This document shows, in pieces, positions 45,204 through 47,019 of a stretch of DNA of 48,685 bases. This DNA is from a virus. Taxonomy: Duplodnaviria; Heunggongvirae; Uroviricota; Caudoviricetes. The notes below the pieces were generated by a model. The model did not search any database. It had not been told where the DNA came from and worked only from the letters and a program-made list of their open reading frames with translations. Numbering within the stretch: position 1 is the stretch's first letter; every line of letters starts with the position of its first letter. Location of the stretch: the IMG/VR virus record IMGVR_UViG_2541047926_000004, positions 1 to 48,685 of that record; one strand, written 5' to 3'. Position numbers and translations under genes: made by a program.

Positions 45204-45786
45204 CTTTATCAATGACTTATCTCCCGACTTCCCGCCTTGCTTTTCCTAAACAGAACAATCGTAGAATATTCTTGAAGGGTTAGATCGTCACTGTTTTCTG
45301 TTCGATACTGTGACATTCAGCACTTGATTCGCTATGGATCTGACAGGAAGGTTTCGAGCGAAAATCTGCAGTTATTCAGTCGTTTTCTTATCGGTCACCA
45401 TTATTCTTTTAGACATTGATCCTACAAAGCTGCCGCAAAGTTGGTGGTGGGAACTGAAGTTGCGTAGAGAAGGGGTCAATACCCGGAGGCAAACATGGGC
45501 TGGCAAAAGTGTAGCGGTATTAGGCGCAGCTATTTAGCCTAGTTATGTTTTATGAAAACTTGATATCATATAAGTGTCTTACTTATTGGCTGTAAATAAG
45601 GTTTTCTAAGGAATTGTTTCTTTAGTATCATTTGTAACTGTAACGGAATTTATAATCCTTTACTTTATTTTTACGGTATTTTTTATCACACCCTATTTTT
45701 TATGTGGTTTTTTATACTGAAGTTTGGCAAAGTGAACTTTATATGCATATACTTCATCCTGGTTTCAGTTAAATTGGGTGGATGAT

Positions 45787-46530
45787 ATGGCAACTACATG
45801 TTCAGTTATATTGATTTTGGAGTCCTTTGATGTTTATTTCGGAAAAGAGAGTGTGTTTCTGGATAGAGGTTTATCTGTACTTGTCGACTCTAGCTATAGA
45901 GATTTTTTCCTGACATATCCTGAAAGAGTGATAGTGGCGGATTTTGGCGCTGAGTTTATTAGTCGCTATTTGAAAGCTAATAACTTAAGGGATATTTCTG
46001 ATTGTAGGGAATATCCATCTTATTTAAAAATAAACTTTGCTGACTTCAGTTTAATTAAAGGATTAATTAGTTGGGCTAATCACTGTGCTGAATATATAGA
46101 AATTTTTGATGAGTCTATTGCTTTTACATGTCTCTCTGCATTTTCTTCTGAAAAACAATTTGGAGTATTTCTGTTTGGATGTTTGAAAAGCACAGGGGCT
46201 AAAGTTAAAACGATTATTCATACGGATTTATCTGCACCATGGCATCTTAAGGATATATCATCAAGATTATATCTCAGCGAAAGTTTACTAAAGAGGAAAT
46301 TGAAAGAAGAGGGGGTATCATTCAGTAAGATCCTACTTGATGAGAGGATGCAAATGGCTGAATATTTACTCAGCACTCGTTGTTATCCTATTAGTAAAGT
46401 AGCTAAGGTCTGTGGTTATGCCAGTGTCTCATACTTTACTTATGTATTTAGACGTTATTTTGGTGTTTCTCCAAGTCAATACTCTCCGAGGAGTTCAGAA
46501 AGTAAAATTCTTACTCACCAGGGAATCTAA
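45787..46530 (+). CDS. AraC/XylS-family transcriptional regulator
   Basis: C-terminal AraC-type HTH; AT-rich gene behind a long AT-rich leader; track ORF starts at GTG 45778. Confidence 0.75.
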   Translation: MATTCSVILILESFDVYFGKESVFLDRGLSVLVDSSYRDFFLTYPERVIVADFGAEFISRYLKANNLRDISDCREYPSYLKINFADFSLIKGLISWANHCAEYIEIFDESIAFTCLSAFSSEKQFGVFLFGCLKSTGAKVKTIIHTDLSAPWHLKDISSRLYLSESLLKRKLKEEGVSFSKILLDERMQMAEYLLSTRCYPISKVAKVCGYASVSYFTYVFRRYFGVSPSQYSPRSSESKILTHQGI

Positions 46531-46571
46531 TCATTGTTCTTGCCCCCTTATTTCCAGACAGGGGGTGTATC

Positions 46572-46799
46572 TTAAGTTAACGTTACCCGCTGACGTCGAT
46601 ATTCTCGCGGAGAGCGATAACCCAACGCACTGTGCGGATGGTTTTCATTGTAATGTTCGATCGCCACTGCAAGATTATGCAATGCCGTTCTTATATTCGG
46701 TTTCGGCATGAACGCGATGTAGTCTTCCTTCATCGTTTTCACGAACCTTTCTGCCATTCCATTACTCTGAGGACTGCTGATTACCCATGAGGAGTACAA
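46572..46799 (-). pseudogene. C-terminal fragment of an IS3-family transposase
   Basis: 75-aa ORF opening at TTG; [13 protein letters not shown]...[19 protein letters not shown] matches the end of the IS3-family catalytic domain; no upstream remainder. Confidence 0.6.
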
Positions 46800-47019
46800 T
46801 TAAACGGGTTAATCAGTTTCTCCATTTGAAAGAAAAAAGACTTCTGTACTGTTTGATATCACCGCTATTTTCTTATTTTCTGTGCAGGTCGTAGTGGGAC
46901 AAAACTGAGACACATAAGGCCTCACAATGGCTTGCAAGGCTTTACATGTTTTGATGTGGTGGGACGTGTGAGCGCAGTGTTGATGGGGTAATACTTTGAA
47001 TTAGAAGCGGATTCTTATG

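What the first reader, a model, noticed from the sequence alone, without database searches (positions are those of the whole stretch)
45204..47019. Orphan AraC-family regulator and IS3-family remnant at the distal end of the prophage
Between the tRNA-Ser fragment and attR lies a strongly AT-rich segment with a 250-aa AraC/XylS-type regulator behind a long AT-rich leader, then the last ~75 codons of an IS3-family transposase. The regulator has no obvious target operon here, suggesting a decayed cargo island carried inside the prophage borders.
Basis: partly seen in the sequence, partly recalled or inferred. Interest (0 to 1): 0.35.

Follow-up and report, generated by a model that had tools for sequence, protein, structure and literature searches.

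The report
Phage-carried acid-resistance regulator PatE cassette
The "orphan" regulator is an intact copy of patE, a known phage-borne switch that turns on E. coli's core acid-resistance genes, and its small cargo cassette still carries a scar of host DNA from an earlier integration site.

Summary
Two perfect 47-nt thrW repeats (1399-1445 and 47020-47066) bound the prophage. Just inside the right one lie a serU tRNA fragment, an AT-rich AraC-family gene and the tail of an IS3-family transposase gene.

The interpretation needs correcting. The regulator (45787-46530, 247 aa) differs at 6 residues from the only AraC-family gene in the thrW prophage of E. coli O157:H7. That gene is PatE (Z0321), a published RpoS-dependent activator of gadE, gadBC and hdeAB elsewhere on the chromosome. 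It is therefore a trans-acting phage cargo gene, not a regulator that lost its operon. It is intact in all alleles examined, present in 658 of 5426 complete E. coli genomes, and carried by sequenced lambdoid phages (ev099, mEp332, PhiR70_1).

The added detail concerns history. The "tRNA-Ser fragment" is 65 nt of serU followed by 278 bp of the chromosomal serU-yodB spacer. Its left neighbour, the PD-T4-3 defence gene, is the right end of prophages that really do sit at serU. The cassette therefore preserves a fossil attR with host flank, a footprint of specialised-transduction-like capture.

The IS piece is IS2-like, consisting of the terminal repeat plus the orfB 3' end. Verdict: a known gene and an ordinary moron, of low to moderate interest.

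The parts
1399..1445 (+). attL core: the 3' 46 nt of thrW (tRNA-Thr CGU, 1369-1444) plus 1 nt. It is the left border of the prophage.
   Evidence: ARAGORN; perfect 47-nt direct repeat with 47020-47066.
43574..44128 (+). pin-type DNA invertase. This is context only. It marks the start of the 3.57-kb right-end module (43493-47066) shared at 97-99% by thrW prophages that have different structural genes.
   Evidence: Pfam Resolvase 7e-52; annotated pinE in relatives; module boundaries from blastn.
44189..44962 (-). PD-T4-3 anti-phage defence gene (LEM-3-like GIY-YIG nuclease), full length. This is context only. It is the last gene of a phage arm of the serU-integrating type.
   Evidence: PADLOC PD-T4-3 2.7e-140, profile positions 1-255 of 256; Pfam LEM-3_GIY-YIG. 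In MB15 and PM4 the same gene is the last gene before serU'/yodB.
45014..45138 (.). Right arm of a serU-type phage attachment site, lying between PD-T4-3 and the serU core.
   Evidence: Collinear with the attR junction of genuine serU-integrated prophages in MB15 and PM4.
45139..45203 (+). Fossil serU core: the 3' 65 nt of tRNA-Ser(CGA), from the anticodon stem to CCA, with a 1-nt deletion in the T arm. It is a vestigial attR.
   Evidence: 97.4% identity to K-12 serU; alignments; weak tRNA-like Rfam hit; not called as a tRNA by ARAGORN.
45204..45481 (.). 278 bp of E. coli chromosomal DNA, the serU-yodB spacer, contiguous with the serU fragment. It is host flank carried inside the prophage.
   Evidence: Collinear with K-12 2043190-2043467 and with the SerU-LTIIb prophage flank. 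Homology stops sharply at 45481/45482 in every copy.
45482..45786 (+). AT-rich (32.8% GC) upstream region of patE, of unknown origin. It holds one sigma-70-like promoter match (-35 at 45724-45729, -10 at 45748-45753).
   Evidence: Composition; promoter scan, 10/12 matches. IS1 is inserted at about 45582 in strain CS18F while patE is retained.
45787..46530 (+). patE: an AraC/XylS-family transcriptional activator of 247 aa, stop codon included in the coordinates. It is an allele of PatE/Z0321 of E. coli O157:H7.
   Evidence: Pfam. 6 aa differences from the O157 TW14359 allele in the same position of the thrW prophage. NCBIfam best hits are YdeO over the full length and the GadX DNA-binding domain. 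PDB GadX domain 6e-24. Literature: PMC10877973, PMC2907692.
46535..46785 (-). IS2-like (IS3-family) remnant: the terminal inverted repeat plus the last ~70 codons of orfB (RefSeq pseudo-CDS 46572-46781). O157 and the lambdoid phages keep a longer piece of 435 nt.
   Evidence: rve_3 9e-17. IS2 TnpB model positions 149-289 of 301 for the O157 version. 73% nt identity to K-12 IS2A nt 1326 to 1090.
46786..47019 (.). Deletion scar (46786-46826) followed by the thrW-type phage attachment arm.
   Evidence: Window 46785 to 46827 corresponds to 301 bp in O157; 46827-47068 is 88.8% identical to the O157 attR arm.
47020..47066 (+). attR core: a copy of the thrW 3' end. It is the right border of the prophage.
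   Evidence: Perfect 47-nt repeat.

Best explanation
The gene at 45787-46530 is an allele of patE. PatE is a prophage-borne AraC/XylS-family activator that does not need a neighbouring operon. By inference from the O157:H7 orthologue, it is expressed from its own AT-rich upstream region in stationary phase in an RpoS-dependent manner. It then acts in trans on promoters of the core-genome acid fitness island (gadE, gadBC, hdeAB) and raises survival at low pH. In LEE-positive strains it also lowers type III secretion gene expression.

patE travels in a cassette of about 1.6-1.9 kb made of serU' core, 278 bp of host spacer, AT-rich upstream region, patE and an IS2-like remnant. The cassette always sits beside the phage attachment site on the side away from int, which is a classical moron position. 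It occurs in at least two unrelated att/int contexts: thrW-type, as here, and lambda-att-type.

The left part of the cassette is a fossil attR of a serU-integrating phage, with adjoining chromosome. The cassette, or at least its left end, therefore entered phage genomes by imprecise excision or recombination at a serU lysogen. It later spread between phages by recombination within or next to that host-derived stretch.

Shown here: identity to the O157 gene, cassette anatomy and boundaries, the host origin of 45139-45481, presence in packaged phage genomes, and intactness. Inferred: the function of this particular allele, the promoter, and the order of the capture and exchange events.
For: Identity.
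- The protein is 241/247 residues identical to the only AraC-family gene in the thrW prophage of O157:H7 TW14359, which has the same neighbours pinE, GIY-YIG gene and IS remnant.
- Z0321 is listed as 'putative regulator (prophage CP-933H), O-island 8', with 6-fold RpoS dependence (PMC2907692).
- PatE = z0321 is an AraC/XylS activator of gadB, gadC, gadE and hdeAB, with a cis element at -132 to -45 of hdeA (PMC10877973; PMC10057817).

Family.
- Pfam finds HTH_AraC and HTH_18.
- The best curated relatives are YdeO (full length, 147 bits) and GadX. The GadX DNA-binding domain structure matches at 6e-24. Both are regulators of the same acid-resistance regulon.

Intact and selected.
- All 8 close alleles and 2 diverged homologues are full length.
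- dN/dS is 0.16-0.34 against the 79-82% identical homologues.

Cargo rather than backbone.
- The gene is in 658 of 5426 E. coli genomes.
- The same right-end module is joined to lambda-like tails (the window), Mu-like tails (L001, L004, L011) and another tail type (L002).
- The cassette is present in phages ev099, mEp332 and PhiR70_1 between the tail-fibre genes and attP/int, and in a prophage at the bio locus.
- MB15 has the same pin/PD-T4-3 end without patE.

Fossil attR.
- Window 45139-45481 is 97.4% identical to K-12 serU plus spacer.
- The predicted junction PD-T4-3/serU'/spacer/yodB exists at 98.5% identity in 2 genomes.
- The ev099 left arm matches the right arm of the SerU-LTIIb prophage.
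- The fossil core carries different mutations in different copies, while genuine attR copies are intact.
Against: - The Z0321 equivalence rests on position, family and literature descriptions. The primary PatE paper (PMC3416394) and the EDL933 locus tags could not be read.
- This allele has 6 substitutions relative to the characterised one, two of them (H153R, L183I) in the DNA-binding half. Its activity is untested.
- Among close alleles the variable codons are 15 non-synonymous to 1 synonymous. This is compatible with relaxed constraint or diversifying selection, although not significantly different from neutrality (p about 0.12).
- The target genes lie outside the window, so their presence in this strain is assumed.
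- For the capture model, no genome among 5426 has patE within about 2 kb of yodB. There is thus no evidence that patE itself was ever chromosomal at serU, and the junction at 45481/45482 could equally be a later insertion into already-captured DNA.
Confidence: 0.85

Rival explanations
1. Decayed orphan. The regulator once controlled an adjacent cargo operon that has since been lost, and it is now functionless and drifting toward pseudogenisation.
For: There is no operon next to it. It is flanked by an IS remnant and a vestigial att site. Among close alleles 15 of 16 variable codons are non-synonymous, with pairwise dN/dS of 1.6-2.7.
Against: The reading frame is intact in all 8 close alleles and 2 distant homologues. 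dN/dS is 0.16-0.34 at greater depth. The gene is retained in 12% of E. coli genomes and in viable phages. The O157 orthologue has demonstrated trans targets and RpoS-dependent expression (PMC10877973, PMC2907692). No copy in any context has an associated operon.
Confidence: 0.06
2. Local regulator. The AraC protein controls neighbouring prophage genes such as the PD-T4-3 defence gene, the invertase, or tail-fibre expression.
For: It lies next to PD-T4-3 and pin in all thrW-type copies.
Against: The association breaks in both directions. Lambdoid phages ev099 and mEp332 and the CS18F prophage carry patE without pin or PD-T4-3. The serU prophages of MB15 and PM4 carry PD-T4-3 without patE. A fossil att site and host DNA separate the two, showing that they were joined secondarily.
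Confidence: 0.03
3. Not phage cargo. The segment is a leftover of an older chromosomal island at thrW that merely lies between att copies left by successive integrations.
For: thrW is a hot spot where tandem elements sit in other strains: a second integrase follows attR in AR_452, H10407 and O157. An IS remnant is present.
Against: The window has only two copies of the thrW core, and the segment lies between them. The cassette is present in sequenced phage genomes that use a different att site. In thrW prophages it is always contiguous with the phage's pin/PD-T4-3 end.
Confidence: 0.05

Closest known systems
PatE (Z0321; prophage CP-933H, O-island 8 of E. coli O157:H7 EDL933)
   Same: It is 97.6% identical in protein sequence (241/247). 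It occupies the same position at the right end of a thrW-integrated prophage, between the GIY-YIG gene and an IS2-like remnant. The upstream region is the same, and so is the fossil serU fragment.
   Different: There are six substitutions: D26E, L29S, Y37S, H153R, L183I and P234Q. The host prophage here looks complete (lambdoid early genes plus a lambda-like tail), whereas CP-933H is heavily decayed. The IS remnant is shorter here (about 250 nt against 435 nt). The function of this allele is untested.
PsrA/PsrB, AppY, YdeO and GadX (AraC/XylS regulators of the GAD acid-resistance regulon, several of them prophage-borne)
   Same: They share the family and size class. PatE aligns over its full length to the YdeO model and over the C-terminal domain to GadX. 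They also share a logic: a horizontally acquired activator plugged into gadE and hdeA control (PMC10057817, PMC10877973). E. coli and phage paralogues at 51-54% identity exist. I take these to be PsrA/B-like, which I did not verify.
   Different: PatE scores below the YdeO equivalog cut-off (147 against 348 bits), so it is not YdeO. AppY, PsrA and PsrB lie in other prophages and other slots. The 79-82% homologues of PatE sit in the Q-holin slot rather than next to att.
Lambda specialised transducing phages (lambda gal/bio) and phage 'morons'
   Same: A hybrid att site is followed by DNA that is contiguous with it in the host chromosome, all carried inside a phage genome next to the attachment site. 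The cargo is an AT-rich extra gene absent from otherwise homologous phage ends.
   Different: These phages also have a working att/int module of a different specificity (thrW or lambda att), so further recombination followed the capture. Only 278 bp of recognisable host DNA remains. patE itself has no known chromosomal home at serU.
IS2 (IS3 family)
   Same: The remnant shares the terminal inverted repeat motif and the C-terminal DDE (rve) region of orfB, collinear with IS2 nt 1326 to 857.
   Different: Nucleotide identity is only 70-73%, so this is a relative of IS2 rather than IS2 itself. It is truncated, lacking orfA and the 5' part of orfB, and is non-functional.

Membership tests
AraC/XylS transcription factor family | A conserved C-terminal DNA-binding domain of about 100 aa with two helix-turn-helix motifs | tested here: met
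   Pfam HTH_18 covers residues 161-236 (3e-15). HTH_AraC matches in two stretches (2e-16), above the gathering scores. The GadX DNA-binding domain structure 3mkl aligns to residues 138-238 at 6e-24.
AraC/XylS transcription factor family | An N-terminal companion (dimerisation or sensing) domain, giving a protein of about 250-300 aa | tested here: met
   The protein is 247 aa. Residues 1-233 align to positions 1-231 of the 253-position YdeO model.
PatE (Z0321) orthologue | Near-identity to the O157:H7 protein | tested here: met
   241/247 residues are identical to WP_000246059.1 of TW14359.
PatE (Z0321) orthologue | The same genomic context: the right end of the thrW prophage CP-933H (O-island 8) | tested here: met
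   Window 43493-46785 is collinear with the O157 locus at 97.2%. It is the only AraC-family gene between thrW and the second integrase. Z0321 is described as a regulator of CP-933H in OI-8.
PatE (Z0321) orthologue | Direct match to the deposited Z0321 sequence or locus tag | not testable with these tools
   The primary paper is not held, and RefSeq re-annotation does not show the old locus tags.
PatE (Z0321) orthologue | Activates hdeA and gadE transcription and raises acid survival | not testable with these tools
   Experimental. It is known only for the EDL933 allele (PMC10877973).
YdeO (NCBIfam NF007407 equivalog) | A score above the curated cut-off | tested here: not met
   147.4 bits against a cut-off of 348. 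The protein is related to YdeO but is not YdeO.
IS3 family, IS2 group insertion sequence | A DDE (rve) transposase C-terminal region and a terminal inverted repeat | tested here: met
   rve_3 9e-17. IS2 TnpB model at 229 bits for the 144-aa O157 version. The alignment reaches IS2 nt 1326 of 1331, covering the inverted-repeat motif TTGCCCC..ATTTCCAGACA.
IS3 family, IS2 group insertion sequence | A complete element: orfA, frameshifted orfB and both ends | tested here: not met
   Only about 250 nt (window) or 470 nt (O157) of the 3' end remains. It is a remnant.
Phage moron (accessory cargo gene) | Present in some phage genomes and absent from others that are otherwise homologous | tested here: met
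   The MB15 serU prophage has the same pin/PD-T4-3 end without patE. The cassette also sits in unrelated lambdoid b regions.
Phage moron (accessory cargo gene) | Base composition distinct from the phage | tested here: met
   34.7% GC against 49.5%.
Phage moron (accessory cargo gene) | Its own promoter and terminator | tested here: inconclusive
   There is one 10/12 sigma-70-like match at 45724-45753, and promoter-like sites are not enriched over shuffles. No convincing terminator follows the stop codon.
Specialised-transduction-type capture of host DNA | A hybrid att site contiguous with the DNA that flanks that att site in the chromosome | tested here: met
   Window 45139-45481 is collinear with K-12 serU (3' 66 nt) plus 278 bp of spacer at 97.4%.
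Specialised-transduction-type capture of host DNA | The phage arm on the other side is found at genuine attR junctions of lysogens at that site | tested here: met
   A chimeric query of PD-T4-3/arm/serU'/spacer/yodB matched MB15 and RMDEC332 at 100% coverage and 98.5% identity. The ev099 arm matches the SerU-LTIIb prophage arm.
Specialised-transduction-type capture of host DNA | The cargo gene itself was chromosomal at that site | tested here: not met
   None of 5426 genomes has patE within about 2 kb of yodB/zinT. Homology to the chromosome stops at 45481.

The most novel reading that the evidence does not exclude
The patE cassette is a natural, still-legible example of how a moron is born and spreads. 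A serU lysogen gave rise, by imprecise excision or flank recombination, to phage DNA carrying attR plus host spacer. The 343-bp host-derived stretch (serU core plus spacer) then served as a portable recombination handle. Through it the same patE-IS2' cargo was grafted onto at least two different serU-type phage arms (PD-T4-3 type and LTIIb/lambdoid type), and onto att/int modules of two other specificities (thrW and lambda att). The left boundary falls exactly at the serU core in every lineage. I found no description of this fossil in the searchable literature, but the primary PatE papers could not be read.
Probability: 0.55. Interest if true: 0.35.

Novelty: already known. Interest (0 to 1): 0.2.

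Why it matters
PatE-type regulators show how a prophage can rewire a core stress regulon (GAD/Hde acid resistance) with a single trans-acting gene. This bears on gastric passage and infectious dose of E. coli. Finding an intact allele on an apparently complete thrW prophage, and the same cassette in plaque-forming lambdoid phages and 12% of complete E. coli genomes, shows that the trait is transmissible well beyond O157:H7. The fossil serU attR with host flank is a small but concrete record of specialised-transduction-like moron acquisition and later module shuffling. None of this opens a new class of system.

Tried and rejected
- Reading the primary PatE and PsrB papers (PMC3416394, PMC4288888): neither is held. 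The Z0321 equivalence therefore rests on a review, the RpoS array paper and synteny.
- The search for related loci with PatE against one genome per species: 85 pattern matches, none confirmed. There are no close relatives in the GTDB representative genomes, so contexts outside E. coli could not be examined.
- Rfam at a permissive threshold over 44900-47400: only tRNA-like hits on the serU fragment, with no riboswitch or sRNA in the upstream region.
- A search for a genome that still has patE beside yodB/zinT, the hypothetical original chromosomal islet: none among 5426 genomes.
- A literature search for serU, prophage and yodB: nothing describing the fossil.
- The idea that the regulator is a pseudogene: rejected because it is intact everywhere examined.
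- The idea that it is YdeO or GadX: rejected because the scores are below the curated cut-offs.
- The idea that the IS piece is IS2 proper: rejected because nucleotide identity is only 70-73%.
- A search for a second copy of the invertase crossover site 43493-43517 in the window: none with 3 or fewer mismatches. The tail-fibre segment may no longer invert.
- One search was a malformed pattern and gave no result.
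Full report
**1. What is in the sequence**

The window begins in proA (ORF 1-1254) and carries tRNA-Thr(CGU) at 1369-1444. A perfect 47-nt direct repeat lies at 1399-1445 and 47020-47066. It marks attL and attR of a 45.6-kb prophage integrated in thrW, with a tyrosine integrase ORF at 1459-2622 on the minus strand.

It holds:
- a 250-aa ORF from GTG 45778, or 247 aa from ATG 45787, the start used by RefSeq and matching the N-termini of homologues;
- a 75-codon ORF on the minus strand at 46572-46799.

Pfam assigns the first to HTH_AraC/HTH_18 and the second to the rve_3 integrase core. patE is 34.7% GC and its 305-bp upstream region 32.8%, against 49.5% for the prophage.

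**2. The regulator is patE**

The 1-kb stretch 45540-46540 occurs in 658 of 5426 complete E. coli genomes, nearly always once, at 98-100% identity. This includes O157:H7 strains, where it sits at about 313 kb.

In O157:H7 TW14359 the order is: proA, thrW, a decayed lambdoid prophage (partial integrase, IS1203, cI, cro, cII, replication fragments, tail fibre, invertible segment, pinE, a GIY-YIG gene), then this AraC gene, then an IS remnant, then a second P4-like element. It is the only AraC-family gene in that prophage. It differs from the window's protein at 6 of 247 residues.

The literature identifies Z0321 as 'putative regulator (prophage CP-933H), O-island 8', expressed 6-fold higher in wild type than in an rpoS mutant (PMC2907692). 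PatE = z0321 is described as an AraC/XylS-family activator of gadB, gadC, gadE and hdeAB, with a cis element at -132 to -45 of the hdeA promoter, and as a negative influence on six LEE genes (PMC10877973). The AppY paper groups PatE and PsrB with AppY as prophage AraC regulators wired into the AR2 system (PMC10057817).

The sequence relationships agree. The best curated models are YdeO (full length, 147 bits, below its cut-off of 348) and GadX. The best solved structure is the GadX DNA-binding domain at 6e-24.

I could not read the primary PatE paper, so the equivalence to Z0321 is inferred from position, family and these descriptions. I rate it at about 0.9.

**3. Not a decaying orphan**

All eight close alleles are full length: the window, O157, H10407, DAM, VTB97448v, CS18F, ev099 and mEp332. 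So are two homologues at 79-82% identity. Against those homologues dN/dS is 0.16-0.34, which indicates long-term purifying selection on the family.

One oddity remains. Among the close alleles, 15 of 16 variable codons are non-synonymous, with pairwise dN/dS of 1.6-2.7. With about 21% synonymous sites this is not significant (binomial p about 0.12). It may simply be the usual excess of replacement polymorphism at very shallow depth.

No copy in any context has an adjacent operon. The lack of a local target is therefore the normal state of this gene, consistent with its published action in trans.

**4. The tRNA-Ser fragment is a fossil attR with host flank**

Window 45139-45481 aligns at 97.4% with K-12 serU (its 3' 66 nt, from the anticodon stem onward) and the next 278 bp of the serU-yodB spacer. 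The same stretch matches the right junction of the SerU-LTIIb prophage record.

If this is the attR of a serU lysogen, then the DNA to its left (PD-T4-3 gene and arm, 44189-45138) should occur next to serU and yodB in some strains. I built that chimeric junction and searched for it. Two genomes, MB15 and RMDEC332, match over 100% of it at 98.5% identity, and three more match partly. In MB15 the order is Mu-like baseplate, tail fibre, invertible segment, pinE, GIY-YIG, serU', yodB, zinT.

The homology to the chromosome stops sharply at 45481/45482 in every copy. The vestigial core is decaying independently in different copies:
- a 1-nt deletion in the window, in L002 (AR_452) and in L010 (PapRG-04-4), which has a second 1-nt deletion as well;
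- a TT-to-GG change in L001 and L011.

Genuine serU attR copies are intact.

**5. The cassette and its mobility**

The thrW-type copies (the window, AR_452, H10407, O157, DAM, VTB97448v, PapRG-04-4) share 43493-47066 at 97-99% identity, running from pin to attR. Their structural modules differ:
- lambda-like, with a 1296-aa J-sized ORF, in the window;
- Mu-like contractile tails in several relatives;
- another baseplate type in AR_452.

A shorter unit is also shared with the lambdoid phages ev099, mEp332 and PhiR70_1. It is 1869 bp in O157 coordinates and runs from the serU core to a fixed truncation point of the IS element (IS2 coordinate about 857). In those phages it lies in the b region, between the tail-fibre genes and attP/int. 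It also occurs in a prophage at the lambda site beside bioA.

In ev099 the 116 bp to the left of the core match the right arm of the SerU-LTIIb prophage, not the PD-T4-3 arm. Two different serU-type arms are thus joined, exactly at the core, to one and the same spacer/patE junction.

The most economical reading is a single capture of attR plus flank, followed by arm exchange through recombination in the 343-bp host-derived stretch or at the core. This is inference. No extant genome has patE beside yodB, so whether patE was ever chromosomal at serU is open.

**6. The IS remnant**

The O157 version (144 codons) aligns to positions 149-289 of the IS2 TnpB model. At the nucleotide level the window's piece is 73% identical to K-12 IS2A nt 1326 to 1090, including the terminal-repeat motif, so the IS end lies about 5 bp after the patE stop codon. 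It is an IS2 relative and not IS2 itself. The window, AR_452 and H10407 share a deletion of about 260 bp at 46785/46827 relative to O157.

**7. Upstream region**

The only sigma-70-like match (TTGGCA, 18-nt spacer, TATACT, at 45724-45753) would give a short 5' UTR. Promoter-like sites are not enriched over shuffles, and Rfam finds nothing there. In CS18F an IS1 sits at about 45582 with patE retained, so at most about 200 bp upstream is needed. The "long leader" is better seen as an AT-rich regulatory region. That it is a target of H-NS silencing is a conjecture.

**8. Verdict**

The finding is real. It identifies a known gene in a known kind of arrangement: a phage moron encoding a trans-acting AraC-like activator of the acid-resistance regulon. 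"Orphan" and "decayed island" are not the best description of the regulator.

The one element I have not seen described is the fossil serU attR with 278 bp of host spacer at the head of the cassette, together with the sharing of the cassette between thrW-type and lambda-att-type phages. Interest is low to moderate, at 0.2.

Noticed in passing
window 44189-44962 (-): The GIY-YIG gene next to the cassette is a full-length PD-T4-3 anti-phage defence gene (PADLOC 2.7e-140, profile positions 1-255 of 256). The right end of this prophage therefore stacks a defence gene and an acid-resistance regulator.
   Followed up: partly
window 47530-48396 (+), with IS1 from about 48392 to the window end: Just outside attR lies an IetA/IteA-like anti-phage AAA ATPase, with 288 of about 370 residues present. 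It is truncated by an IS1 insertion (InsB fragment at 48407-48673 on the minus strand), so the Iet system is presumably dead here.
   Followed up: partly
window 42330-43517 compared with L003 12103-13289: The tail-fibre C-terminus and assembly-gene block upstream of pin lies in the opposite orientation to the homologous block in O157 (96.4% identity, inverted). The 25 bp at 43493-43517 overlap both alignments, as expected for an invertase crossover site. No second copy of that site with 3 or fewer mismatches exists in the window, so the segment may be frozen.
   Followed up: partly
patE alleles: window 45787-46527 and loci L001, L003, L004, L005, L006, L009, L011: Fifteen of 16 variable codons among eight close alleles are amino-acid replacements. 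Several cluster in the N-terminal domain (residues 18-37). Pairwise dN/dS is 1.6-2.7, not significant at this sample size.
   Followed up: partly
L014 6001-6735 and L015 832-1575: Homologues 79-82% identical to PatE sit in a different moron slot, between antiterminator Q and the holin of lambdoid prophages. This is the slot used by Shiga toxin genes. A further group at about 52% identity occurs in 12 lambdoid phage records.
   Followed up: partly
window 10785-10901: Four copies of a 22-nt repeat (TTACCCGAATCAGGTAAGAAAA) lie inside the replication-initiator ORF 10344-11363. They look like lambdoid ori iterons.
   Followed up: no
L001 (strain DAM, NZ_CM129523.1): In L001 the same right end, including the sequence past attR up to the IS1, lies beside corA rather than in the usual thrW neighbourhood, and it is flanked by IS1 copies. 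This suggests an IS1-mediated rearrangement.
   Followed up: no
L011 28982-29275 (strain VTB97448v prophage at thrW): A related thrW prophage with the same patE end also carries iss (increased serum survival lipoprotein) and a SIR2-family gene next to its repressor. These are further cargo on this phage lineage.
   Followed up: no
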